DNA of 64,000 bases, taken from contig JAWMAR010000421.1 of assembly GCA_036785375.1 (NCBI GenBank), forward strand, positions 1,612,001-1,676,000, written 5' to 3'. Each line of letters opens with the position of its first letter. Within the stretch, counting starts at the first letter, position 1. Of this stretch, positions 15,409-64,000 are shown piece after piece. The stretch is from Leucoraja ocellata (taxonomy: Eukaryota). The position numbers and the translations under genes were made by a program. A model generated the notes under the pieces. The model saw nothing but the letters and a program-made list of their open reading frames with translations. It was not told the DNA's origin and made no database searches.

Positions 15409-18400
15409 GTAAGGCATTTTCTTTCAAAGGTAAGGAATTTTCTTCAGAAGCTCAGAAATAGGAATCATATTTCTGATTGTTCCGAAGCCTCTGGCATGAA
15501 TTTTCCAATAAACGCGACGGGAGTTTTGTGCAAAGAGGGCTTTGTGCAGGGAGTCGTGGTGAGAGCTTCTGATGGGGAAAAAACTTGTTTAACACGGCAA
15601 ATTATTACCTAGAAATCACAGCCCGGGGGTTTGGTGGATATCAGCAGGTTTTCAAAAAAAAGGAAGTAGATATGCTTACAAGAAGGATATATATCTTTAG
15701 GGCCGCGGTTATAGAGCAAAGGAGCTGGGTAATTGGAAAACTTTCAAAAAATCGCTGACACAATGGGCAAAACTATCTTCCGTTCCACATTATTTTATAA
15801 TTTTTTAACTCAAATTGCTGTGTGTGGTCAGGCCATTCGACATTAACCCGTCTCATAGCTCGCGTTTAATTTTTAGGCAATTGCAGACTGTACTGAGACA
15901 GGTTCGACCGGTACCAACTTATTTCCAGATTGTTGGAAACCCCCTTGTATGTTCCCTTAATACTGGATGCTCTGGCTGCTCTCTCGTCGTTTCTTCTGCT
16001 ATTGTTCCCGGTGGCTACACAAAATAAAATATTTGTTTTTTCCATTGCATCATTCAAATCCCTTTCAGAACAATCCAACGCGCTTTAACACTAATTGAGG
16101 ATTTTTTTTTAAAATGTTGTCATTACTGTTGTTAGGGAAATAAAATCAGGGCCTGGGTTTCAAGTGTGGAGCATTTTTCACTCTGAATCAGTCGTTCTTC
16201 AGAAGCCAGGGCATCAAAACCCGGGCTGTAGCTGCCAGTATTGGCAGGTTAATACGTCAAACAGAAATGTCCTCCTGTCGATATTTTTCCACAGATCCCT
16301 TTGCGAACCTGTGTATGGCCTTTGTTGTGTGTAATATTGGTGGGGTTACCTTGTACTAGGTTGTGCTGCTGGTGAACTTAATATTAATGAATAGACATGA
16401 ATAGTGTATGAAGAAAGCCAAACAACAGACCAAGTAGTTTAAGACCAGTAATGGAGAAAGTTTCAGAAACAATAGTTAGCAGACAGATGGATAAGTCAGA
16501 GTCGTACAACATGGAAACGGGTCCTTCAGTCAATTGGGTCCATGCCCATCATTGAACAAACATTTATACTACTCCTATTTTGTTCTCTTCCCCCCACCCA
16601 TTGCAGGTTCTATCACTCATTTACACATCGGAGGCCATTTACAGTGGCCAATAAACCTATCAATTGACACATCTTTAGGATGTGGCAGGAAACTGAACCA
16701 CAGGGGAATCATGCACACAACACACACAACATCGAAGGCTAGGACTGGCCCCTGATTTACCGCAGCTGCTCTGCTGCACCGCTGTACTGATTAGAAAAAA
16801 GGAAGCTGGCAGTATGAAAGATAAATCACATCCACTTAGCAGTAACGTGGTTGATGTATATATGGACTTCCAAAAGGTATCTGATCGTGCCATTTAGCAT
16901 TTTGCTAAATTCAGGCAAATAGGACTAACTCAGGGGCACAGCACAGCAATGGAGTTGCTGCCTCAAAGTGCCAGAGATCTGGGGTTCGATCTTGACTACA
17001 GGTGCTGTCTATGTGGAGTTTGCACATTCTCCCTATGGCCGCATGGGTTTCCTCTGGCTGCTCCAGACATGCAGGTTAATTGTAGGTTTGTAGGTCTGCC
17101 TTGTTGAAGGTACACAACGATCTGCTTCTCGCCATCGACTCCGTTGACTGTGCAGTCCTGCTCCTTCTCAACCTCAGCGCAGCGTTTGATACAGTGGACC
17201 ACACCATCCTAATTGACCGTCTCCAGTATGCGGTTGGTGTTGATGGCATTGCCCTGAGCTAGTTTGTTTCCTACCTCAAAAATAGGAGTTTCTCTACCAA
17301 CATAGGCAATTCTTTCTCTTCCCCAGCTAGCCTTTTCTGCGGGGTGCCACAAGGCTCCATCCTTGGTCCCAATCTCTTCTCTCTGTACATGCTGCCCCTC
17401 GGCCAAGTCATTCAAAGGCACGGCATTTGTTTCCACTGTTATGCAGATGACACAGCTCTATCTCTCCCTGAAACCCAACGACCGGTCAAATTTAATCAGC
17501 CTCATGCACTGACTCGAGGACATAAAATGTTGGATGGCCCAGAACTTCCTTCAACTAAAGGAGAGCAAGTCTGAGGTCATCCTACTCGGCCTCTCCAACT
17601 CCATCAAAACTAGGCAGCCTTTGAAAAGCCTTGATTCCTTAGTCAAACCGCACGTCAAAAACCTTGCCATGATATTTGACTCCGCATTAAAGTTTGACAA
17701 ACAAGTTAACTCTGTGGTAAAAGCTAGTTTCTTCCAGCTTCGTGCCATAGTTAAAATCAAACCATTCCTCCAATTCGACGACCTTGAAAAAATCATCCAT
17801 GCATTCGTCTCCTCCTGCTTTGACTACTGCAACTCCCTATACTCTGGCATCAGCCAATCATCCCTGTCCCGCCTGCAATTGGTTCAAAACGCTGCAGCGA
17901 GACTTCTGACGGGCACTCGTAAAAGGGACCACATCGCCCCGATCCTGGCCTCTCTCCACTGGCTCCCAGTATGGTACAGAATCAACTTTAAGCTCCTCTT
18001 ATTCGTATAAAAAGCCCTTAATAGGCTTGTTTCTACACTGTATCTCTAAGATAAACGAAAGGATGGGCAACTTTGTTTGTATGGCCGTGCATAACTCTTT
18101 GGCTTTAATCTCGGTCCTGACAAGTGGGACAGCATTGATTTGGATGAACAGATTCCAATTAGGGAAGAATTGATAGAAATAGGAATTTTTGATACAAACA
18201 GTATTGGTAACATGGAGACCTTGGGAATGGAGGGAGGGCAATAATTTAAATGCCATAACTGGAGTTAATTTTCTTTATTTTGTTTTACAGAAATAAGTTA
18301 TTTCAAAGAGTGGATGATCATGGTAATTATTTCTGTGCTGCGTTGATCCTTTCTGCCATTCTGTCAGAACCAATCGTACTTGTATTTCTGCCGTGTTTTA

Positions 18401-21400
18401 TACCTTGGTCCCTCTACCCGAGATGGATTCCAAGTCAGAGTTTTGACTGAGTCACCCATGTACCAATTACTTGAGAAGCAAGATCCCTCTTGTATTTTAA
18501 AGAAAGCCTATGTGGGAATATGACATTTAAAAAGAAGAACATTTCTCAGAATAGGAAAAAAGATTTGTTAAGGCCTTGTAGAATTCTTGCTCTTGATTTG
18601 CCAGCGACTGGACAGAATTAAGGGGACTTTCCATCAGACAAAATTAGTTCCTTCATTGTGGGAAGACTGGAATTAGACAAAGCTACTAAACGTTCAGTGG
18701 GTCATGTTGTCTTCACAGTTCATCTTTTACACAAATGTTTTTTTTTAAATTCAAGCCTGTCTTCCTGCTCTGTTGCTAAGGTGGATGTTAAATATCCCAC
18801 GGCCTCTTTTGGAAGATCAGTATAAAACTGGATCTGAAATTGCAGAGGAACGTAGGTAGGAGTAAAGAACAAAAGTGAAGGTCCATTATAGAAAGGCCCA
18901 AGGCAGAAAAACAAGTAATGATAATGGTGCTGCAGGGACAAACTGCATTGGTAATAGGAAAATAAATAAAAGACTGTTGTAGAGCAAATGTAAATACAAA
19001 CCGAACCCATACCTACCCAAAACTGTTGAACTTGCTGTTTGGTTCAGAAGGGTGTAAAAGACTAGTGAGTTAAAGAGAGCTTTATGGTAACAGAATGGGA
19101 GGCTATGGAAAGGGAGGTCAGGGTGGAAATGGGAGGGAAGTTAATGTTATCAGAAACTCAGGGTCACAATTGGGCAACAAAGGAGAGCATTCCATAAATT
19201 TGTTAGCCTATCTGTTACTGACCATTAAATATATAATCGCAGGTCAGCAAAGCAATTCATGTTGAACTGCACAACACGTGAGCCTTGTTGGCTTGGCTAA
19301 GATTTATTATGGCTAGATTAGCTTTTATTGCCCATCATTCTCTAACCTTGTACAAAGTATCAGGCTGCGCCACATCAGAGAACTGTTAAGAATTAATCAC
19401 ATTGCTGGGATTTTAACAAGTCTCAGATTTAGCCGAGACCTCTGGATTATTAATCTAGTAATTAAAACTTTTTTTTTAAATGCTAACAAAATACAGATTT
19501 ATTTCTAGGAGAATAGAATTGAAATGTTATAAAGTTGTATAAAACTTGGGAAGGGCACGTTCGGCTGGAAATAGACCCCCATGGAGACATGGCACAGCAG
19601 TCTTGTATCTCCAGAGACATGGCTTCAGATCAGACCTCAGATGCTGTCTATGTCTGCCCAGTTCTCCAATTTCCTACCAATCTCCGAAGATGTGCAGACA
19701 CAAAATGCTGGAGTAACTCAGCGGGACAGGCAGCATCACTGGAGAGAAAGAATGTGTGACGTTTCGGGTCGAGATCCTTCTTCAGACGTGAGATTCCAAA
19801 GAGGTGCAGGTGGATTAACTGGCCTCTGTATAGTAATCTCTTAGTGTAGGTGGCAAAAAGAATCAAAGGGGCCTAGTTAGATGTGGGAGTGAATGAGTGC
19901 AGAGTTGTGGGGAGATGAATAGCTGGTGAATGGGACTGATGGGATTGCTATGCTGAGTGTACCATGGACCCAATAAGCTTACTGGCCTCCTTTTGCTTCA
20001 GAGTAAGTTTAGTTCCACCACTGTAGTATAAAATAGAATGGAAGCTGTGGGGAAAGTGCACAAAGCAGACTGAGAAATGAATTGTTGTAATGAAAACAGT
20101 GAGTAGATCGGGCTTTGTTTCCTTTAGAAATGGCTTAAAAGTGACATGGTAGAAATCTAAAATTATGAATGATAAGTCAAGATTGTTAAAGAGAGAATGC
20201 TTCTATTTGTTGGCAAACCCAGAACTTAGCCTGATAAATGCAAGGTCGTTTCTAATAAATTCAATGGGAACTTCAGAATACATTTCTCTTGTAGTGTAAT
20301 TAGAAGTTGGAACTCTCTGCCTCTGGGAATAATTAACTTGTATACTTTGGATGCTTTCTGAAGGAAATTAGAATGTTGAGAGAGTTTGATGCGATAGACT
20401 AGGTCTAAGGCTCCTTTGGTTTATAAACACCAGCATAAATTAATTGGGCCAATTGGCTTATCATTGTGCCGTATATTCTATGTGTATCTATATTGTAAAT
20501 GAACGCAATCAACTCTCTATTGAAAGTGATTCCGTTTACAAAGGGATGCAAATCAATAACTGACAACACTGATTTGAGATAATTGGCAAGAGATCAAAGG
20601 ATGGATTAGAAGATGGTATTTAATTCAGCAATTTGTTGAAATCTGGATGGTATCGTGTGAAAGAGTATTATAAATCATTCAACCGCACACAAAGGAAATT
20701 GAACAGATACTTGAAAAGGAATTACGGGTCCATGTAAAAATAGAATACAGCGGATAGTTGGTGGTGGTTAGGGAGAGAGGACTTTGAAAAGCTAAAGTCC
20801 TTGGTATGCTGTTTGCCCAAAAGATCTTTTGTGATGCATGATCTGCATTGGTCTACAAATGTTGTGACCCATCTCGTGTCTTTTATCATTTTATTTGTTT
20901 CAGACATTTAGACGGGTAAATGAATAGGAAAGGTTAGATGGATATGGGCCAAATGCGGGCAAATGGGAATAGCTCAGATAGACATCTTGATTGGTATGGA
21001 TGATGTTGGGCTGAAGGGCCTGTTTCCATGCTATATAATTAAATGACTCTGAAGACAATTCACAATAGTGACTTAACATGGAGTTTAGTAACGCATTTTA
21101 TTTGATTATGCTTTCTGGGATGTTTTACTGCATTATAAGATGATACGTAAATCAAAATTCTTGTTGATTCAAGATAATATTTTGCTTGATTCCATTTTTT
21201 GCGAGCAGAACAACAAAGACTACAGCTCGGAGGAGTACACCCACAGGCTGCAAACCTTCATCCAGAACAAGAGAAGGATTGATGACCACAACGAAAGCAG
21301 TCGTACCTTTCGCAGTGAGTTCACTCGAATATACAATGGCTTGCAAAAGTATTCATACCCCTTGAACTTTTCCACATTTTGTCACGTTACAACCACAAAC

Positions 21401-24400
21401 GTAAATGTAATTTATTGGAATTTTGTGATAGACCAACACAAAGTGGTGCATAATTGTGAAGTGGAAGGAAAATGATACATGGTTTTCAAATTTTTTTACA
21501 AATAAAAAACTGAAAAGTGTGGCGTGCAAAAGTATTCACATGTTGAGGGTCAGATTAGTGAAGATTTAATCCTGTGGTAGAATGGGTTTTATAGACAAAT
21601 CATCCAACCCTTATTCAAGTTCCTCCACTTCATCTGTTCCTAAGTACCCTACACACTTAGATTGTATGAAGACCACGGTCATGACGCAGAGATCAACAGA
21701 TTATAAAAAATAGTTTATAGTTATTTTTATTGACCGTTTAATAAAACATCATGGATTGAAGTAGCTTCATTTTAACGATTGCCGTGCGAATTATAATCTC
21801 CATGTACAACAGCTGAAGGAACTTCACAGACTTAGTCCAACAGTTTGGAGGAAAGCACTGCACTCTGTCAACTTTACAGTTGTGAATTAATACCATCAAT
21901 ATAAATGTTTAAGAAAGAACTGCAGATGCTGGAAAATCGAAGGTAGACCAAAATGCTGGAGAAACTCAGCAGGTGAGGCAACATCTATGGAGCGAAGGAA
22001 ATGAGCGATGTTTCAGGTCCGAAGAGGGGTCTCGACCCGAAACGTTGCTTATTTCCTTCGCTCCATAGATGCTGCCTCACCCACTGAGTTTCTCCAGCAT
22101 TTTTGTCTACCATCAATATAAATGTTGTGTTTTGCAGCATGCAAGCTTTACTATTTACACTGTAATACCATTTTGGAGGAATAATGTCTAAGGTTTAACT
22201 TCTCATATTTTGAATTCCCTTTCTACAGTGGGTCTCAACCAATATTCTGACATGACCTTCAGTGAGTTTAAGACACTGTACTTGATGAAAGTACCACAGG
22301 TAACGGCTTCTTTCCGCTCTTTGCTGCTAAATTTCTACCTGGATTTCATGCTAATTCACTGCCTTCAAGTTTCTCTGCCCATTACTTATGGTTTCCCTTA
22401 AAACAGGCACCATTGTGAAAAGATAAGGTCACTATAGTAATTGGATATCCATGTGTAAAACACACAAAAAAATATAGAGCAAGTCAAAAATTAATGGCAA
22501 CTACAGAGGGTTGTGACAGTATGTTTAACCTCAAATGAACTTTGTCTCCTACGCTTGCCCCTTAAGTTGTACAGTTTTCTTTTGAAATGCTTCTCTGGTG
22601 GGCACCTCTCTTGTCTCTAGTTTAGATGATCATGAGTTCATTACATGAACATGAGTCCAGCTACATATACAATCAATGTCAACATTCCCGATCCCAATAC
22701 AATGGAGAACATTAGAAGTACTATTGATTAGATTTTCTTTAACCAAATTCAATCCACCATTACACATGGTCAGAAGATGAAACAACGCAATTTCAAAAAT
22801 AAAACCCACAGCCCTGGCCCCTACTCCCAACTTTATCACATTGCCATCCCCAAATCGGCTGCTGCCTTTCCTACAAAGCATTTTGAGACATCCCTAATGA
22901 AAGGTGCTTTGGAAATGCAAATGCTTTCTTTCACTTGCTCTATAGTTGGTTTTCAAGCGTTCATGGCTCATTCATCCACATACTGATTTAAATCCTCTGT
23001 CGTGATATTGTATAGAAATCACCAGGGGTATGCTGTATATATGTATATATTTTATATATATATTTTCCCAGTTGTGTGGTTATTGCGGTATCTTATGTTG
23101 TTTCAGTAGTAACCAACTAACCAGGTTGTACAAGGCAGGGAGCTTGTCAAATGTGTATATAATATCTTCATAATTATGTTAACAAGAACATTATTGTACT
23201 TGACAGTGGAGAAACTCTTTAAAACTAACAGGATTATCTTGAACTTAAGAGTTGATGATTCAACATATGCTATCGCATGAAACATCCAAGTGCCTCACTA
23301 GAAAGAAAAGTGCAATAGTGCGGGTAGGATTGGATGCAGAATGATTCAAGGTATCATCTTTCAAATGAGATCTTGACCTGTTCCCCAGGCCACCCTCCTT
23401 CTCAGTTGCAGACAATAGATTCCAAGGCACTATTTGCAGCAAGTTCCCCCAGTGGCAAAGTGGACATTTGATGCCATTGTTGAACTTCCCCAATATATAG
23501 ATGGATAGGACCGGTTTGGAGGGATTTGGACCAAATGCGGGCAGGTGGAACTAGTGTAGCTGGGACATGTTGCCGGTGTGGGCAAGTTGGGCTGAAAGGC
23601 CTGTTTTTACACTGTATCACTCTATGACTCTATTAGGAACCAACACTTGTCGCTGAGCTAAAGAAAATAAAGTTTGATATACATCTGAGTGATATGCCTG
23701 TAGGTACTACCCTGGTGACAAGGTCTTTCATGACAAAAGGGGCTTCTATCTATAATGTGGGGAAAGATTGACAGCGGGCTAAACCATGCCACCTTCATTA
23801 GCTTGATTGTCAAAACAGTTGACCTCTTCAAAATATTCCCAAACTTTTCAGAAACATCTCAAATTTTAGCAAAAGGAAAAAGTCAGAAGTAAAGATTCTA
23901 AAATGCTTACACTTCTTAACATTATAAAAACAAAAAAAATTAAATGTTAAAGATTTAAAAAATGTTAAGATTATATGGTTTTACGTAAATAACATATGTA
24001 TAAGTCTTTATATAATATCACTTGTCCAAGGCTTTTCCAATCAAGCCACTGGGTTTCCTGGTAATATTACCTGTTTTCAGGGAAGCTAGTCTGTTTCTTT
24101 GTGGTCTTCATATGGAGCCTATAGTTGGAGCTGGGGGCTTTCCAGTGCCAAATTGCTTGATGAGGCACTAGTTCTTCTATTCACACATGTACAGAAGCCT
24201 TGAGCTGGAATGCTGGAATCCTTGCTGTAAACTTCCTAGAAAATCCAAGCCCTAAATACAAAATTAAAATATTCCAGGTGCTGGGAATCTGAAATGAAGA
24301 GCTGGGTTCCAGACTGCAGTGAATAACTATCCTCGTGCCTTGATAGCTTTGGGTTTATCTTTGCAAAATATAAATTGTTTTCTCTGTCTCATAGAACTGC

Positions 24401-27400
24401 TCGGCTACACGAGGGAACCATTACTCAAAACACGGCCCGTTACCAAAATCCATTGATTGGAGACAGAAAGGAAAATTTGTCACGCCCGTAAAAAACCAGG
24501 TAAAGACAAATGATTCACTCAATCAGGTAACAAAAAAACATAGTCAGTGGATGCTGGAAACCTGAAATAGAAACAAAATGCTGAAAGTATTAATCTGGTT
24601 ACACTGCATATATCGGGGAGAAACAGATATAACACATCTTTTTAATCAATTGCAGATAAGGATAAAGCACACAGTGTCTGTTAGCATTGTGTTGTTAGCT
24701 AATGACTTGGTGCTGAAGTGGATCCTAAAGCAAGATGCACATAAAGTAGTCTGATTTTACAGCCATGTCTCGTTACTCAGCAAAACATCTGTACAGCCAA
24801 CAGATGGCCAAAACTGGAGAAAAGCAGCAGTGAAGAAAGCGAATGGCATGTTGGCCTTTATAACAAGAGGAATCGAATATAGGAGCAAAGAGGTCCTTCT
24901 ACAGTTGTACAGAGCCCTATTCAGACCACACCTGGAGTTTTGTGTACAGTTTTGGTCCCCTAATTTGAGGAAGGACCTTCTTGCTATTGATGGAGTGCAG
25001 CGTAGGTTTACAAGGTTAATTCCCGGGATGGCGGGGCTGTCATATGCTGAGAGAATGGAGCAGCTGGGCTTGTACACTCTGGAGTTTAGAAGGATGAGAG
25101 GATATCTCATTGAAACATATAAGATTGTTAAGGGCTTGGACACGCTAGAGGCAGGAAACATGTTCCCGATGTTGGGGGAGACCAGAACCAGGGGCCACAG
25201 TTTAAGAATAAGGAGTAAGCCATTTAGAACGGAGACGAGGAAACACTTTTTCTCACAGGGAGTGGTGAGTCTGTGGAATTATCTGCCTCAGAGGACGGTG
25301 GAGGCAGGTTCTCTGGATGCTTTCAAGAGAGAGCTAGATAGGGCTCTTAAAAATAGCGGAGTGAGAGGATATGGGGAGAAGGCAGGAACGGGGTACTGAT
25401 TGCAGATGATCAGCCATGATCACATTGAATGGTGGTGCTGGCCCGAAGGGCCGAATGGCCTACTCCTGCACCTATTATCTATTGTCTAAAAGCATACTAT
25501 TATTACAACTGTAATACTTAGAAGATGAAAGCAGAATACAAAATTATGGTTATAACATACACTTTTGTGCATTTAGAACGGGTAATGGTGATAGAAAAAG
25601 TTCCCAACTACCTTTTTTTAACCAGGAGAGACATCAATTATGTGGCTTTAACGTAATGTCATTCGACCCTCTCCAGCCTGCATGCCCAACTTGGGATTGA
25701 TCATAAACAATGGGGAAACTATTGTCCTAAACTCATATTGGTTCCTTGAGCTAGAGTTTCAGGCAGTATTTACTCTCAACATACAGACTAAGATGGTGGT
25801 CAGGGCAGTGTCTACAGTCCTTGTCAGAAACTGATCCACCTTCTCCTTGAACGCAGTGAGTCAACAACTACAGTAGCAGGTAGCAACACATTTCTCTCAG
25901 GAAAACAACTGGCCATCATCGCAGTACACTTACACCAATGGAGTTTAAGCTCGGTTTCTTTCTTCTTCATTTGTTAAATTGAAGTAATCTATAATTATTT
26001 CATACAACTATGGCAGTTTGCCTTTAATTTGCATTTAACCAGTCCCTATAAAATAAGAAAGTTTCCTAAACCGCTTCACACAAGTGTTATTAAAATATAT
26101 TACAGAAGAAGGGTTTCGGCCCGAAACGTCGCCTATTTCCTTCGCTCCATAGATGCTGCTGCACCCGCTGAGTTTCTCCAGCATTTTTGTGTACCTTTTA
26201 TTAAAGTATAATTCTCATTTAACGATGCATTAAGGCAAATTGGTAAGAGAGGTAGATTTTTAAAGATCAAAGAGGTAGAGAGGGAGATTGCCTTAGGTTT
26301 AAGGGCCTGTCCCACTTTCCCGAGTTATTCACGAATTCTCCCAAGTTTTCAAACTCGCAGAATGTTCGTAACGAGTCCGTAGAAGGCCGTAGGAGTCTGT
26401 GGATATATCATAGCGGCTCGTTATGCCAGCCACAGGTACTCGGGGCATCAGGTAAGTCGGGACGTTTTTTCAGCATGATGAAAAATGTCTACGAGTAAAA
26501 AAAAATAGCCCCGAGTACCTACGGCTGGCATAACGAGCCGCTACGATATATCCACAGACTCCTACGGACTTGTTACGAACATTCTGTGAGTTTGAAAACT
26601 CGGGAGAATTCGTGAAAAACTCGGGAAAGTGGCACAGGCCCTTTAGGGTGTTAGCCCTCTAAGGAAGGTCTAAGTGGGATTGTAGGAGCAACTCCACTGA
26701 CAGCAAAAGTACGTTTGGCTTCCAATCATGTCTATTTTCTGGTTTGAGTAACGTTAATTACAGATTGCAATCTCCACAGGGTGGGTGTGGAAGCTGTTGG
26801 ACCTTTTCTACTACAGGATGTTTGGAATCTGCAGTTGCAATACATTCAGGAAAACTTTTTTCACTGGTAAGTGTTGTTCCCAAACTTTGTTTATCTGAGT
26901 TATTGGACAACTTTCCAAAAATTGCACGAGGCTAACATATTTTCAAACTTCTTGTAGGCAGAACAGCAACTTGTAGACTGTGCTCAGAACTTTAACAATC
27001 ATGGATGCTCTGGGTGAGTGAATGTGCAATGTGTTATACATTTTCAAATTGGACTGTTCGAATGTGGAACTAAGAAATTATTATCTGGTTCTTTTTATAA
27101 GGACCTATCATCCTTACCACAAAGCCTTTCTAAGGAAGAATTTATCTTCACACAATCTTTATTCCATATCTCTCACTTCTCAGAGCATTGGGAGAAATCT
27201 CTCTCTTGGTTCTGAAGAATTCAAGTACTCTGCATGGAATCAAAATTGGAAAAGTCTATCCAAAAGTAAAGTACTTTATGATTAAAATGCTTTTGATCTA
27301 AAATAGGGACTCGTTTTGTAAAGAACTCCATGCCTATTTCATATTTTACACTATTGTTTTCAATATTTCGCCAGGGGACTACCAAGTCAAGCCTTTGAAT

Positions 27401-30400
27401 ACATTAAGTACAACAATGGGTTGGAAACTGAAAAGGATTATCCGTATGAAGGAAAGGTGAGATTTTACATTTGTGACTACACAGTTAAATAGAATTGATG
27501 TCCTTGTTCAATCACTTAAATTTTGCAAATGGACAAATAAATTGCTGGACAAGTTTTATAAAAATGGCACCAAAATATACCTGTAAACTAAATTGGAGGA
27601 TAGTAAAACCCGTGAAAACTCGAAATGAAAATAATGTGAATGTTGAAATTTAAGCATGTAATTATAATTAGTTGACTCTGATGCTCTTCAGCATGTGCAC
27701 TTTTATGATATCAACAAGCAAGTCTCGTGTAACTATTTCCTTCTGGACTTGTCACAGAATGATTATTATTGTTTTTCCAATAAATGAGACAGCGGGAGTG
27801 CAAGGGAGGGGAGAGGCCCATGTTAGACCCATATTTAATCTTGGCTAGTGCTCACTTGGCTGATCTTGGTCAGGGTCTTAAAAAAAAATTAGTTTGGTTT
27901 ACTGCGAGAGCTCAAATAAGTTAAAGAAGATTTCACTCAAAGGATGCAGGCCTCAATTGGGAAGACCAGCATTCATGCCCATCAATAAATGCTCATGAAT
28001 GATTGGCTTGCTTGGCCCTTTCAGAGAACAGTTAAGATTCAATTGCTTGTGGGTCTCGAGACACAAATATCAGACTGGGTTAATATGATGCACTATCTTC
28101 TGTATTGAAATGGATGTGTTATTGTAACAACCAATAGTACAGGACATGGGAACGTACATTTTGTATAGTGCAATCTGATCACAGGAACTAATGCTGAATT
28201 ACAGATGTAGTTAATTGATTTGACATTGATTCTAATACAATACTGCAAATGTGGATGAACCAAAGTCCTGTAAAGCTACATTAGGACTCTCTGACTCTTG
28301 TACTCAACGCCCTGACCTATGGAAGCATATTCCTTATTTGCCACTTTCAAGGAGCTATAAACTTGGACACCAAGATTCCTCCACATCAATGCTGTTATAG
28401 TCAAACCACAAATGTATATATTTCCCCTTAATATTGACCTCACAAAGTGGAACTTTGGCTTGCATTTTAATGGTTTGCTTACCTCGTATAACTATTAATT
28501 CCTTGTCTTAATAATTAGCGTATATTTATTTATTTGTTTGTTTTGTTATTGCATTAACGTGTCTGTAAAGCTACAGCAAATAAGAATAGCATTGTTCTGT
28601 TCCCAGTGTATATGATAATTAAACACACTCTTTACTTATCTTGAGACTGGATAGGCTGGCCTTGTTTTCCCCAGAGCAAAGGAAACCGAGGGACACTAAG
28701 AAAAGACATAGGTTTAAGTTGAGAGGAAGGAATTCTCAATGAGATTTGAGGGAAAAGTTTATTTTTGCAGAGTATGTTTGAAAGAATGCCAGCCGTCAAC
28801 ACGCCTCAGACTACGTATAAATCCCACGCACATAATTACAGGCAGATAAAATTTAAAAGTAACTGGTCATAGTTATAACATACTGAGTTAAGCTAAATGG
28901 CTACTACATCTGGAACATTGCCAGGGAAGGTGTGGAATTGAATACAATAATTACTTTGAGATACTTAGACTCTTCCACAAGCAAGGATATGGTCTAAATA
29001 GGGGCACATGGGATGTGTAAGTGGGCAGGAAGATGGGCAAGAAGGTCGACTGGCTTGGATGAAGAGCAAAAGGAACTGTTTCCTTGCTGTAAAACTACGA
29101 CTCACAAAAGGCATAGAATCAGGGCACTCAGTCCCAATAAAACTAAGCCGAATCAGCATGGTTTTAAAGATCAGAACTTGTGCTTCACTAACCTATTAGA
29201 GCTTCTAAAAATATAACCAGCATTTAGAAGACAGGAACGAGCCAGAGGGCATGTAATTTTGGATTTGCAGTAGGCCTTTGATCAGATGTCATGCAGTGGA
29301 CTATTGAACTAGATTAAAATTTGAGGTTGTGTATATATGTTGAAAACAGCATGAATTTGGATTCAGCACACTGACAGACTACAGAGTAAGAATACACAGT
29401 TCATCCTTTGGGTAGCATAGATACATGCCACGAGGGCATGGTTGGGTCTATTTTTATAATTTACTTTAACTTCAATGAGAGGACAATGTAGTATATTCAT
29501 GATACATTATTGATCATAAAATACTAGGTAAGATTAGGAGGAGTCTACAAAGATGCATTTTGAGTGGGCAAAATTATAGCAGGTGGAGAATAAGGTGGTG
29601 AAGTGTGAAATTATCTGCTGGTAGGGTTTTTTTTGAAGTGTGAGACAGAGAAATGCAACGGAGAGATGTCTGTGCTCTTGTGTATAAAGCATAGATGAGT
29701 AACAACTGGATTCAGCATGTAGTGGGTTTGGATGTTACCATAAGGAAGGCTGGTTGCAGCTATACAGGGTTTTGTTAAACCAAGAGATCACAGGTGCTGG
29801 AATCCAGTACAAGAAGGATCTCGACCCAAAACATTACCCATTCCTTCTCCCCAGAGATGCTGCCTGTCCACTTGAGTTATGCCAGCATTTTGTGTCTATC
29901 ATCGGTTTAAACCATGATCTGCAGTTCCATCCCACACGAAAAACAAACTGCTGGAAGAACTCAGCAGGTCAGGATGTGGAGGCAGAGATGGGTCAACATT
30001 TCAGGTTGAGAACCTGCATCAGTACAAGATGCTAGGTCTTGACCCAAATCATCAACCATCCCTTTAGCCGCTGATATTGCCTGGCCCTCTGCCTTCCTCC
30101 AGCATTTTATTTATTGCTAGGCCCAACCCTGGAGTACTTTGTACTGCTTTAATCTCTCCACTTTAGGATGCAAGTTTTTGAAGGGGTGCAATGGAGATTA
30201 ACTAATCTCACAAAGTAATAAAGTTTAATACATTCATCTTCAAAATGCTGAGAGTAAAACTCAGACCCAGAATCTTGTCCAACTTAAGCCGAGTGAAAAA
30301 GCAACCAAACTGCAGTTAATATTCCTATTATAATCTTCTTTCACTGCTCATGTTTCTACCAGAATGGATCTTGCAGGTTCCAGCCAAGCAAAGCAGTTGC

Positions 30401-37570: not shown

Positions 37571-38176
37571 AATTACCCTGCTCGCACACTTTCAACAACC
37601 AATTAAAGAAAATCTTAAAAAGGAAGGAACCTTTATAAAACTAAATAGTTAGATTTTAAATCAAAAAGCAAATTATTTCATGTTAAAAATCTGAAATAAA
37701 AATGGAAAATGCTGGAAATTCACAGGTCAGGGGAAATGTACAGGATTAATGTTTTGGGTTGGTTATGTTGGAACCATCAGAATCTTGTTACCCTTGTTGA
37801 CCATACTTTAAATCCTCCATTATCCAATGGTTGTGAGATTCAAGTTTCATGGTGGACTTCATGTCGTCTCCCCAAACTAATTTGTCATGAAAGAGGGGTA
37901 GGAATTTGAGTGTCCCACAAACAAAAAGCCTGTGAACAGAAACATTAGGCAGTACATGAATGCCACTTTAATCAATTGATAACTAATTTGTTGTGGATTT
38001 CAAGCATTTTCTGTTTTTATTTTCAAATGCAAAATGTGAACCACATTTACACTGCAAATACTCTTGCTGTGTGTGGCAAGAAAAGCATACATTTACATTT
38101 GCTGTAATTTGATCATACAGCCAGTTTACTATTCTGTTTCAATCGCAGCTTCCAATCAGTCATGCAGGATGCCTTG

Positions 38177-38372
38177 GGTAGAAAGGAACTGCAGATGCTG
38201 ATTTACACCGAAGATGACACAAAATGCTGGAGTATCGCAGAGGGACAGGCAGCATCTCTGGAGAGAAGAAATGGGTGACTTCTGAAGAAGGGTCTCAACA
38301 GGAAAAGTCACTTATTCCTTCACTCCAGAAATGCTGCCTGGCCCGCTGAGTTACTCCAGCATTTTGTGTCTA
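38177..38372. mobile_element. Fold-back Penelope-like fragment
   Basis: Inverted arms; flanking direct repeat atgcaggat(g/a)cctt at 38162-38175 and 38372-38385. Confidence 0.82.
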
Positions 38373-39044
38373 TGCAGGATACCTTAATGTTTGCTGTTAG
38401 TTATATTCATTAGTTGAAAGATTACAGGCTAGAATCTTGAATCAAAATTGCTTTTATTGAAATGCTTAAGAACAGTGACCAGAGGAATCAATTCAACCAA
38501 TTGAGGCTTTTGATTTAAGCTTGATCTATATTAGTTCCAACTTGCTTCAATAACACTTAATATCCTTCATTAATACATCAATTTAAGATTTACATTTTCA
38601 ATTGACTTCTATGCTCTGCATCTTTTAAAAAGGGTGAGTTTCTAAGACCTGCTTAATGCTTTCACAGTTATCCTCACTCAAGCAGAGTTTTAATTGTTAA
38701 GTATTTTTATGCGAATCATATTTCTTTCACAGAAATAAAGATTGTATCTTTTTGAGAACTTGCTGGGTTTTTTTTCATGCATGAAATGGCATTGTCATTA
38801 TGTTAAACTTTATATTTCCAGCAATTGTTATTTAATGTTTATATTTTTATTGTTCAGTCAACAAATGGAAAGCATTTTCAATTTCAATTCTGCAAGTTTT
38901 ATGCAGTTTTCCCTAATTTGTACCAACAGTGTATTGTAATTCCTACCTCAAAACATTGTGACTTTCCAGTTTTCTATACAACTATTTGTGTTCTCTGCAA
39001 ATATGTTGATGATGCTGCTGTAAAGAATTATGAAAGTCCTGATA

Positions 39045-40410: not shown

Positions 40411-41015
40411 TAATTTTAATTTAATTGATTTACAATGAATTTTCTCAATGCAACTAATAACCATCTGCACTTCAACATAGCTAAGAACACACAAATAACT
40501 TTTACAATTAAATTTCTAATTTTGCCTCCAAAGATTAAAAATAAGCTTTTTTGAGGATGAATTTCAGGAAACTGCATTTTGCACAAATTACAATTCTATT
40601 GAAAGCAAAAATACAACACCATTAGTTAATAGCTTTATTCTGATTTTTTTTTCACTATCAACCATGACTTGTATAAAATTACCTAAGTCTCACCCCTGAA
40701 CACTTGGAATAAAAACCCTGACTGACACAGTACAGAGAGAATGCTGAACTGTCAGAGATGCCCTCTTTCAGCCGAGATATTAAGCTGCCCTCGTGGTGAA
40801 CACAGCATTACTTCATAGAAGACGTCCCATGGATGTGGGCCAAACGCCAAACATCCATCAGGGACAGTATCTGGGAAGCGATGTTTGTGGGAGCTTGCTA
40901 TGTACAAATTGGCAAAAAAAGCTTGCTTGTCAGGTTGGGCCAAAGGGTGTGTTTCCATTCTGTTTAGACTATGATTCGAATTCCTTTTTCACTAACTTAA
41001 CAACGTATGAACTGG

Positions 41016-41254
41016 AGGTAGACAAAAATGCTGGAGGAACTCAGCGGGTGAGGCAGCATCTGTGGAGGGGAGGAAACTGATTGTCTACCTCCAGTTCATA
41101 TGTTGTTAAGTTAGTGAACAACAGTCTGAAGAAGGGTTTCGGCCCGAAACGTTGCCTATTTCCTTCGCTCCATAGATGCTGCTGCACCAGCTGAGTTTCT
41201 CCAGCATTTTTGTGTACTTTCGATTTTCCAACATCTGCAGTTCCTTCTGAAACA
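41016..41254. mobile_element. Rearranged Penelope-like fragment upstream of BLM
   Basis: ctgaagaagggtttcggcccgaaacgttgcc...ctgcagttccttctgaaaca on +, plus an inverted partial arm at 41016-41070. Confidence 0.82.
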
Positions 41255-41539
41255 CAAGGAATTAGAATCATAGAGTCTAAACAGAATGGAAACACGCCCT
41301 TTTGCCCAACCGGACATACCGATCAAGATGCCCCATCTACACTAGTCCCATGTCCCTTTAAACTTTCTCCATCCATCTTCTACCTGTGCAAATATCCTTC
41401 AATTGTTGTTATAGTACCTGCCTCATCTAACTCCTCTGGCAGCTTGCTCCATATATCGACCATCTGTGTGGAAAATGTCCCCCTTGAGATTGTTTAACCC
41501 ATTGATTATCCTATAGGATCTTTGGCTTAGCCTTTGATG

Positions 41540-41797: not shown

Positions 41798-42012
41798 CAC
41801 AAAAAGCTGGAGTAACTCACTCAGTCAGCGGGCCAGGCAGCATCTCTGGAGAGAATGAATGGGTGGCATTTCAGGTCGAGACCCTTCATCAGCCTGAAGA
41901 CGGGTCTCGATCCGATTCCTTCTCTCCAGAGATGCTGCCTGTCCCGCGGAGTTACTCCAGCTTTTTGTGTCTATCTTCGGTGGAATCCAGCATCTGCTGT
42001 TCCTTCGCACAC
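41798..42012. mobile_element. Fold-back Penelope-like fragment, about 55 nt into BLM intron 1
   Basis: Inverted arms around gagacccttcatcag|cctgaagacgggtctc. Confidence 0.82.
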
Positions 42013-42466
42013 AGCAAGAGACCCTGGTCTCTGCAGGGCCTGGGAGGAATAAATAAGGCTAACTACCCTTTGTTTTATTATTTAAAAAAGAGCATTTATT
42101 AGCTGGTCAGTTAGTTATTTTTCTTTTCACAGAGCGTGGTGTGTATTTGAAACAAACTCCCAGAGGAAGTGGTAGTGTCAGGTACAATTAAGGCATTTAA
42201 AAGGTGCTCGGATAGGTACATGCATAGAAAAGGATTGACAGAAGATGGACCAGCTGCAGGCAAGAGAGACTGGCTCAGTTAGGCAACTTATTCAACATGG
42301 ATACTTTGGGCCGAAGGGGCTGTTTCCGTGCTGTATAACTCTCTGACTCTGAGCATGGATTCCTCACTACTGCATGTCTCGTCCTGTATTATGTGATTTA
42401 ATCATTGAAATAAGCCTTGAAATCTAAATCTGCATGTAGCTGTAGAGAAATGACATTCAGACTAAA

Positions 42467-42668
42467 TGTGTAGGAAGGAACTGCAGATGCTGGTTTAAAC
42501 CGAAGATAGACACAAAAATCTGGAGGAACTCAGCAGGTCAAACGGAATTTCTGGAGAAAAGGAATATGTGATGTTTTGGGTCTGAAGACGGTTCTCGACA
42601 CTAAACATCAACTATTCCTTTTCTCCAGAGATGCCCTCTGACCCACTGAGTACCTCCAGCTTTTTGTG
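42467..42668. mobile_element. Fold-back Penelope-like fragment
   Basis: Inverted arms; flanking direct repeat tgacattcaga at 42451-42461 and 42667-42677. Confidence 0.82.
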
Positions 42669-43430: not shown

Positions 43431-61084
<17,654 letters not shown>

Positions 61085-62721: not shown

Positions 62722-63125
62722 ATGTGTAGGAAGGAACAACAGATGTTGATTTAAAACGAAAATAGACACAAGAAGCTGGAGTAACTCAGTGGGACACGCA
62801 ACATCTCTGGAGAGAGGAATGGGTGACGTTTTGGGTCGGGACCCTTCTTCAGACTGGTTGGGGAAAAGGGAAACGAGAGATATAGGCGATGATGTGGAGA
62901 GATAAAGAACAATGAGTGAAAGATGTGCAAAAAAGTAACGATGATAAAGGAAACAGGCCATTGTTAGTTGTTTGTTAGGTGACAACGAGAAGCTAGTCCG
63001 ATTTGGGTGGGAGAAGGATAGAGAGAGAGAGAGAGAGAGAGAGGGAATGCCAGGGCTATCTGAAGTTAGAGAAATCAAACTGCCCAAGCGAAATATGAGA
63101 TGCTGTTCCTCCAATTTAGCCTGAC
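62722..63125 (-). mobile_element. Penelope-like element 3' end including the endonuclease C-terminus and 3' UTR; internal (GA)n at 63020-63042
   Basis: Minus-strand peptide AKLEEQHLIFRLGSL is typical of the end of the PLE GIY-YIG domain. It is followed by a pyrimidine-rich UTR, the CTGAAGA-GGGTC..GACCC-xAAACGTC motif and the family 3' end. Confidence 0.85.
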
Positions 63126-64000
63126 TGTTGTGAGGTAATAAAATTGTTAACCCAGTCTGCTTGCAGCAAAATCCCGTGATCAGTGACATAATAGTGATTT
63201 CATGATCTGTTTTGTGATCGTTATTGAGCGGTAAATGTTGGTCCAGTTCCATTGTTCCATTTTTTTTATTCATGTAAGAAAGAAGGTAACGTATCTGTTT
63301 AGTGTATCACCTTAAAAGTGATGCTAACGTAACACTTTCAGTATTGTAGATGATCCCCAGATCCTGCTACACAGTACATGTAGTGTTCACCACTCATTGT
63401 GTAATTCTATGCATTGAGCAGTCATTTGGATATGTTGCATTGTTCAATAGCAGCATATTCACTGTATTGAAGATCATTTTCCTTTCAATAGGGATTGGAG
63501 TTTTGACAGAGGTTTATTTTAATTCTTCCCTTTTGCCTCGAGTGTCATCTTTCAGGCATTCAAAGTAGAAATCTGTGGGGTCGGGTGCTATACCAGCCTT
63601 CAATACATGACTCCTGCTCATATTCCAGGGCAACACTGAGCAAGTGTTGCATGCTGGTGATGCCACCTTAAGATGTTACACTAATAATCCTTCTTTCTCC
63701 CTAAGGTGGACTTAAAAAGGCCTGTTGCTCCATTTTGAAGAGGGCAAGGTAGTTCTTTCAGTGTCCTGGCCAATAGTAATCCCTCAATTAACATCTCTAA
63801 CACAATACTTGGGCATCCGTCTGTTTGTGAGAGTTTGCTGTGTGCATATTAGCATTTACATCACAACCAATTACAGTTAAAGATATTGTCTGTAAAAGGA
63901 GGACTCCATCATGTCTGTGCCATGCCTGGAAGGAATGTGAAAACCATGAAATAAATCAAATTTTAAAGTTACCCATTTACACCCTTGGGCACTACTGACA

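What the first reader, a model, noticed from the sequence alone, without database searches (positions are those of the whole stretch)
21910..22110. Family of fold-back Penelope-derived insertions whose inversion point always sits at a hammerhead-like core
Seen in sequence: six insertions (21910, 38177, 41798, 42467, 55875, 60255) each consist of two head-to-head copies of the same PLE 3' end. Four have 11-19 bp flanking direct repeats, e.g. taccatcaatataaatgtt at 21891 and 22108. In every case the + arm starts at or within a base or two of the (t)ctgaaga motif (tccgaaga at 21910), while the opposite arm is truncated at a different position in each copy. Established: PLEs often insert with an inverted 5' pseudo-LTR and carry hammerhead motifs. 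Inference: either the reverse transcriptase repeatedly stalls or switches template at this RNA structure, or a palindromic non-autonomous master element is being mobilised by the PLE enzyme, i.e. a hairpin SINE-like partner of Penelope in elasmobranchs.
Basis: partly seen in the sequence, partly recalled or inferred. Interest (0 to 1): 0.7.

Follow-up and report, generated by a model that had tools for sequence, protein, structure and literature searches.

The report
Twin-primed Penelope retrotransposon stubs
These short mirror-image insertions are real, but they are stubs of a known kind of jumping gene (Penelope-like) in a layout already described, likely stitched together anew at each landing from two separately started copies of one RNA, and the one unexplained extra is that about half of one young subfamily's ribozyme-bearing copies, mirror-image or not, end within nine bases in front of the ribozyme motif.

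Summary
All six head-to-head insertions exist, but the turn of the first lies at 22017-22019, not 21910, and 'always' is too strong: 40 of 57 unselected pairs have an arm reaching the CUGA edge. They are the shortest insertions of an autonomous, Neptune-type Penelope-like element (3.9-kb unit, RT + GIY-YIG) found in the same genome. A palindromic master is rejected: arms group by locus, junctions differ (94 types in 107 pairs), and arm pairs up to 3 kb follow the same rule. All 53 TSD-flanked pairs join one tailed and one tailless arm, matching the two RT start sites shown in vitro for an anole PLE; in 24 of 45 pairs the tailless arm is longer, which snap-back of one cDNA cannot give. The stop is shared by solo copies, peaks 2 bases before CUGA and is about 30 bases upstream of the predicted cleavage site. 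Its cause is open: an RNA 5' end (strong-stop-like) is my best guess, but no cap-G, RNA start peak or splice was found. The layout is published; this scan noted it before on other DNA (128 notes, at least 14 genomes).

The parts
21891..21909 (.). left target-site duplication (19 bp; last 4 bases also match the element's tail end)
21906..22019 (-). tailed arm of the PLE end, element positions +129 back to about +15
22017..22019 (.). junction; GTC fits both arms (3-base microhomology)
   Evidence: read directly
22017..22111 (+). tailless arm, positions -2 to about +92, starting just before the CUGA core (here CCGAAGA, core U changed to C)
22019..22046 (+). minimal hammerhead-like motif (CUGANGA, helix II, GAAAC-GUH); predicted cut after 22046
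   Evidence: motif read from sequence against PMC4209133; helix II U-G/U-A in 394 of 407 copies; no Rfam hammerhead match
22108..22126 (.). right target-site duplication (first 4 bases also match the tailless end)
38175..38373 (.). pair: tailed arm (-) cut at about +25, tailless arm (+) from -1; 14-bp TSD with one mismatch
41798..42013 (.). pair: tailless arm (-) to -4, tailed arm (+) from 0 with an internal deletion; 7-bp flanking repeat only
42465..42668 (.). pair: tailed arm (-) cut at about +15, tailless arm (+) from -2; 14-bp TSD with one mismatch
55873..56081 (.). pair: tailless arm (-), tailed arm (+) from +1; no convincing TSD
60255..60470 (.). pair: both arms reach -4 and overlap in the TCAGTCTGA palindrome; 12-bp TSD with one mismatch
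19681..19790 (-). solo copy starting at about -2
26103..26197 (+). solo tailless copy starting at about +2
29808..29937 (+). solo tailed copy starting near the core
40985..41254 (.). complex insertion: short inverted arm, inverted copy of host flank, then a tailed arm from -4
62723..63130 (-). longer tailed copy that reads past the hot spot into the pyrimidine-rich 3' UTR and a remnant of the endonuclease C-terminus

Best explanation
These are dead, very short insertions of an autonomous Neptune-type Penelope-like retrotransposon, likely made at each landing by reverse transcription primed from both cut DNA strands, one copy starting at the end of the 38-base tail and one at its base, likely on the same RNA, and likely joined head to head by end joining. 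Shown: parent element, two fixed 3' ends, one of each per TSD-flanked pair, locus-specific junctions, arms sharing rare variants, a pile-up of 5' ends at 0..-8 in solo and paired copies alike. Inferred: staggered nicking gives the 11-19 bp TSD; the RT that starts at the tail follows behind the other and so is cut short more often; joins are biased to self-complementary spots (TCAGTCTGA at the core edge, TTTCGGGCCGAAA in helix II). The stop itself is most likely the 5' end of many element RNAs, so that priming in the upstream pLTR yields a strong-stop-like cDNA of 95-135 bases (about 45% likely on its own; not shown).
For: Parent: full partial-tandem copies with a 3.9-kb unit and 1,189-1,241-aa open frames; RVT_1 E 8e-5 and GIY-YIG E 0.012, both below Pfam cut-off; DKG, YIDD and CX4CxxC motifs read. 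3' ends bimodal near +93 and +130. Tail+tailless in 53 of 53 pairs with a TSD score of 9 or more, and 45 of 57 unselected pairs against 50% expected, p 8e-6; 7 of 7 long inverted pairs, arms up to 3.3 kb, obey the same rule. 117 head-to-head against 6 tail-to-tail pairs. Tailless arm longer at 5' in 24, tailed in 6, equal in 15 of 45, p 0.0014. Rare variants shared by both arms 20 against 5.4 +/- 2.3 in within-subfamily shuffles. PMC11167929 shows in vitro that a PLE protein cuts and extends both strands and starts at two sites that bound the tail. Genome-wide exact counts 36,465 / 30,775 / 24,939 / 21,383 / 19,392 / 16,891 / 12,739 for matches to 0, -2, -3, -4, -5, -6, -9 give 48-63% of ends within 0..-8 and a mode at -2 of about 20%. 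Short to long about 1:1 (33:34), as two priming sites per transcript would give. Same edge in an older subfamily with a different upstream sequence.
Against: No added G before -2 genome-wide (1,406 seen, 1,440-1,700 expected by chance, about 3,700 if half were capped) or before -3 in 131 solo copies. Only 2 of 14 near-full-length copies that reach the zone start there, against 33 of 67 short-primed copies, p 0.019, so many templates extend upstream. RNA reads of a related organism show no place where many molecules begin. In D. virilis Penelope the start site lies about 120 bases upstream of the ribozyme (PMC2377424 with PMC4209133). PMC11167929 saw no difference in start site between strands in vitro. 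Gene conversion between arms could also give shared variants. The -2 mode is inflated by microhomology. 12 of 57 unselected pairs were scored tail/tail or tailless/tailless, none with a TSD score of 9 or more.
Confidence: 0.72

Rival explanations
1. Same twin priming, but the stop is a block on a continuous (tandem or circular) RNA: protein bound at the ribozyme, or helix I formed with a second ribozyme copy, halts the RT as it leaves the core.
For: The edge coincides with the 5' strand of helix I; 37-52% of copies read through; 12 of 14 near-full-length copies extend upstream; no cap-G; PMC11167929 finds the ribozyme protein-assisted and uncut RNA the main template.
Against: Helix I is only 2 base pairs here and its 3' strand is already copied when the RT arrives; the motif region folds no better than shuffles (z 1.1, -0.3, 0.0); a block should act on the second pass as often as on the first.
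Confidence: 0.35
2. One cDNA folds back on itself at the TCAGTCTGA or helix II palindrome and is copied (self-priming, as proposed for Adineta PLEs); the tail difference comes from endonuclease resolution.
For: Perfect palindromic centres exist (60255; several -4/-4 and +10/+10 joins); arms share rare variants; PMC3846280 proposes self-priming and PMC8557442 endonuclease resolution for the tail.
Against: A copied arm cannot hold sequence that its template lacks: in 24 of 45 pairs each arm has sequence the other lacks (tailless longer at 5', tailed longer at 3'), also in long pairs L214, L218, L224, L225. It can hold for at most the 21 pairs with equal arms or a longer tailed arm.
Confidence: 0.1
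3. A palindromic non-autonomous master element (hairpin SINE) is mobilised as a unit by the PLE enzyme.
For: Outer ends are fixed; the best genome matches to the 21910 copy span its whole length; one recurrent join (GG-GTCTGAAG) occurs at several independent TSDs.
Against: Arms group by locus and subfamily, not by side; 94 junction types in 107 pairs; continuum with solo and long copies; the one side-specific site vanishes in unselected loci.
Confidence: 0.05
4. The ends are set by ribozyme cleavage, by a splice acceptor at CAG/T (-1), or by a stall at the C-rich tract upstream.
For: A few ends at +28, the predicted cut (L158, L260, L279); polypyrimidine tract plus CAG before -1, where the D. 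virilis intron ends (PMC4209133); 82% of young long copies have 4 or more C-runs upstream.
Against: The main pile-up is 30 bases upstream of the cut; 0 of 131 solo copies carry a spliced-on upstream piece or common first exon and there is no GTRAG donor in -200..-5; no joint to that acceptor among the 15 RNA joints shown, 100 not shown; the older subfamily with a weak C-tract is short more often (59 of 69 against 54 of 95, p 8e-5).
Confidence: 0.1

Closest known systems
Complex insertions of EN+ Penelope-like elements: direct pLTR, adjacent inverted 5'-truncated copy, one-sided 30-40 bp tail, TSD (Pen2a_Av, PMC3846280; general scheme, PMC8557442)
   Same: Head-to-head inverted copy, tail on one arm only, TSD, palindromes at the junction, partial tandems.
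   Different: Here both arms are often only 95-135 bases, in very high number, and the 5' ends pile up at one place; the passages read do not report such a pile-up or the strict one-tail-per-pair count.
Poseidon_Ac (PAc) of Anolis in vitro (PMC11167929)
   Same: Two RT start sites bounding the tail; both strands cut and extended; ribozyme just upstream of the start sites.
   Different: Different clade (this one has the CX2-5CxxC linker); ATG lies at about +164, not in the ribozyme; the paper does not treat inverted insertions or a 5' stop.
Minimal hammerhead ribozymes of PLE pLTRs (PMC4209133)
   Same: CUGANGA core, bulged base before helix II, GAAAC-GUH with no helix III; mostly single truncated copies, some in opposite strands 100-700 bp apart.
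   Different: Cleavage not tested here; ends do not map to the cut site.
L1 twin priming (recalled)
   Same: Two target-primed events on opposite strands joined with microhomology.
   Different: L1 arms do not overlap in sequence and the second primer anneals by homology at variable sites; here both arms copy the same stretch from two fixed starts.
Minus-strand strong-stop DNA of LTR elements (recalled)
   Same: Short cDNA from a priming site near the RNA 5' end, if the RNA-end reading holds.
   Different: Target-primed and integrated directly; RNA end not shown.

Membership tests
EN+ Penelope-like element | Single ORF with RT followed by GIY-YIG endonuclease in the parent | tested here: met
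   (both Pfam hits below the curated cut-off; motifs DKG, YIDD, LIYCVRC..IYIGET read directly)
EN+ Penelope-like element | Partial-tandem pLTR structure | tested here: met
   L210, L211, L212, L228
EN+ Penelope-like element | 30-40 bp tail on one end; inverted 5'-truncated copy; TSD | tested here: met
Neptune/Nematis rather than Penelope/Poseidon | CX2-5CxxC linker upstream of GIY-YIG (PMC8557442) | tested here: met
   CNRKRCNTC in L210-L212
Neptune/Nematis rather than Penelope/Poseidon | RT phylogeny with reference PLEs | not tested
   no reference set fetched
Minimal PLE hammerhead | Core letters and helix II | tested here: met
   CTGAAGAAG in 260 of 407 copies, next variant 12; closing pair U-G or U-A in 394 of 407; Rfam gave no hammerhead hit
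Minimal PLE hammerhead | Self-cleavage | not testable with these tools
   needs an in vitro assay
Non-autonomous palindromic master (SINE-like) | Fixed internal junction and side-specific variants shared across loci | tested here: not met
TIR MITE | Symmetric terminal inverted repeats and fixed short TSD | tested here: not met
   ends asymmetric by the tail; TSD 11-19 bp, variable
Catalogued repeat (Dfam/Repbase) | Entry for this family | not testable with these tools

The most novel reading that the evidence does not exclude
Penelope-like elements insert by obligate twin priming: a dimeric enzyme starts two cDNAs on one RNA at the two ends of the tail, one from each cut strand, which explains tail, inverted pLTR and TSD at once; and the upstream pLTR yields a strong-stop cDNA ending at an RNA 5' end at the ribozyme edge, which is either integrated as a stub or jumps to the downstream pLTR as in LTR elements.
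Probability: 0.3. Interest if true: 0.7.

Novelty: new member of a known kind. Interest (0 to 1): 0.42.

Why it matters
How Penelope-like elements make their inverted repeats and one-sided tail is an acknowledged open question (PMC8557442, PMC11167929). These stubs are a large fossil record of the reaction: one tail per TSD-flanked pair, a longer tailless arm and a sharp 5' stop are three predictions that the existing in vitro system can test at once. As elements they are ordinary dead copies; they also matter for annotation, since they mimic MITEs and miRNA hairpins.

Tried and rejected
Rfam scan of the window: only sub-threshold miRNA-type hairpin hits, no hammerhead. Pfam on the 418-aa fragment: nothing. 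Folding of the ribozyme region: no stability beyond shuffles. Apparent side-specific base at +30: selection artefact. Cap-G, spliced first exon, C-tract stall and ribozyme cut as main cause: not supported. Run search: no RNA holder listed; raw RNA reads of a related organism are dominated by copies inside host transcripts and gave no start peak. Empty site for 21910: none seen; the paralogue L002 and contigs of organisms B and D run into the element (only the best-supported joints were shown). Literature searches without a hit: 'Penelope + strong-stop + truncation', 'Penelope + Neptune + shark + hairpin'; 'Penelope-like + twin priming' gave 3 papers on other subjects, seen as listings only; 'Penelope + skate + transposable + Leucoraja' gave 1 unrelated listing. 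These searches cover only the held open library; no supplements were read, and those of PMC11167929 (Figs S1-S2) may bear on the 5' ends. A comparison with solved structures gave no result.

Full report
Coordinates on the element: C of the CUGA core = 0.

1. Observation. Self-comparison of the window finds the six named head-to-head pairs and six further pieces of the same repeat. At 21910 the order is: 19-bp repeat (21891-21909), reverse-complement arm from +129 back to about +15, a GTC overlap at 22017-22019, forward arm from -2 to about +92, 19-bp repeat (22108-22126). The motif quoted 'at 21910' is at 22018. Four of six have 12-19 bp flanking repeats. In three the tailed arm is cut at +12 to +25; in three both arms reach the core edge.

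2. Parent. In 600 kb of arbitrary blocks (15 x 40 kb) there were 97 unique core-bearing copies under a strict pattern: 49 solo, 27 arms of pairs, 21 long. Long copies run into a reading frame with RT and GIY-YIG motifs. A protein search listed 100 copies at 96-100% identity; I fetched 20 with long frames, of which L210-L212 are partial tandems with a 3.9-kb unit, open frames of 1,189-1,241 aa and an ATG near +164. Pfam gives RVT_1 and GIY-YIG, both under the curated cut-off. The CX4CxxC linker places it with Neptune/Nematis by the criterion in PMC8557442 (passages read); no tree was built. A 26-mer of the young subfamily has 58,290 exact matches.

3. Ends. Of the first 100 matches on contig C1, 85 remained after dropping 15 duplicates. 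3' ends fall near +93 or +130. 5' ends: 33 at -11..+6 (25 solo, 8 in pairs), 34 further upstream, 18 further downstream. Nested genome-wide counts, deconvolved with assumed mutation and background rates, put 48-63% of core-bearing copies of that subfamily within 0..-8, mode -2. Letter frequencies of solo copies agree: T at -1 68%, G at -2 58%, A at -3 52%, C at -4 31% (98 unselected). The predicted cut is at +27/+28; only three independent copies began at +28.

4. Pairs. Across all sequence held there were 117 short head-to-head pairs, 107 after removing duplicates, and 6 tail-to-tail. 87 of 107 join a tailed and a tailless arm; 45 of 57 in unselected DNA (p 8e-6); 53 of 53 among those with a TSD score of 9 or more, raw TSD length 11-19. 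Seven long inverted pairs follow the same rule. On 64 loci with both arms covering +30..+88, arms within a locus differ by 0.090, arms of different loci by 0.170-0.185 regardless of side; concordance at 13 of 14 polymorphic columns is 0.83-1.00; the 14th is explained by how L001-L030 were chosen. Rare variants are shared by both arms 20 times against 5.4 expected. The tailless arm reaches further 5' in 24 of 45 unselected pairs, the tailed arm in 6. In those 24 each arm holds sequence the other lacks, so neither is a DNA copy of the other; both must come from RNA, unless later deletion is strongly one-sided.

5. Mechanism. PMC11167929 (parts 1-2 of 4 read: main text and start of methods) shows a PLE protein cutting and extending both strands, predicted to be a dimer, and starting at two sites that bound the tail. 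Joined with section 4 this gives twin priming with end joining as the best account (inferred). Joins favour self-complementary spots and often carry short templated or untemplated inserts. For the stop, tests were mostly negative: no added G, no spliced first exon in 131 solo copies, no dependence on the C-rich tract, no start peak in RNA reads of a related organism, of which about 1-5% per run were read. An RNA 5' end fits the sharp upstream boundary, the 1:1 ratio and an initiator-like TCAGTC (consensus recalled); against it, 12 of 14 near-full-length copies that reach the zone extend past it (81 motif hits read of 86) and the D. virilis start lies upstream of an intron (PMC2377424, passages). 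I put RNA end at 45%, protein or structure block at 35%, others 20%.

6. Known versus new. The inverted truncated copy, one-sided tail, TSD and junction palindromes are described (PMC3846280, passages; PMC8557442, passages); minimal hammerheads in PLE pLTRs, including opposite-strand pairs, are described (PMC4209133, parts 1-2 of 4). I did not find the 5' pile-up or twin priming of PLEs in four searches of the open library. Earlier notes of this scan reach the same reading on other DNA; they are not independent evidence, and my reading was written down before I saw them.

7. Verdict. Real, abundant, ordinary as elements, useful as a record of an unsolved insertion mechanism. New member of a known kind; interest 0.42.

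Noticed in passing
window 44041-44862 and 52641-53564 (+): Exons of a Bloom syndrome helicase (BLM) gene: BLM_N E 5.5e-14 for the first; the second is assigned by resemblance only. Some of the insertions likely lie in its introns.
   Followed up: partly
window 26301-26643: Unrelated 343-bp element with about 90-bp terminal inverted repeats starting AGGGCCTGTCCCACTT, MITE-like; a weaker relative at 54150-54360.
   Followed up: no
window 40928-41316: The complex PLE insertion at 40985-41254 sits between 43-bp inverted repeats and includes an inverted 41-bp copy of its own flank.
   Followed up: no
L237, L243, L260, L270, L276, L278, L280, L286, L298: Small head-to-tail repeats in which element position +187..+279 is joined back to -129..+28; may be template jumps or small circular RNAs. 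L260 rejoins at +28, the predicted ribozyme cut.
   Followed up: partly
window 21906-21909 and 22108-22111; many of L001-L030: Both 3' ends often overlap the TSD by 1-4 matching bases, whereas the in vitro study reported priming without homology; not quantified.
   Followed up: no
G000 contig C1, L091-L126: Many loci recur at 92-99% identity with their flanks (15 of 100 hits), pointing to segmental duplications or uncollapsed haplotypes; L002 is such a copy of the 21910 locus.
   Followed up: partly
solo copies, position -7: A is enriched (43-46% against about 28%), possibly a target-site preference.
   Followed up: no
window 21509-21927 and 22090-22500: Contigs of organism D with about 3% differences run from both flanks into the element, so the insertion appears older than that split.
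   Followed up: partly
window 24755-25482, 58526-58937, 17513-18010: Fragments of other retrotransposon reading frames (CR1/L2-like by recall; no Pfam hit).
   Followed up: no
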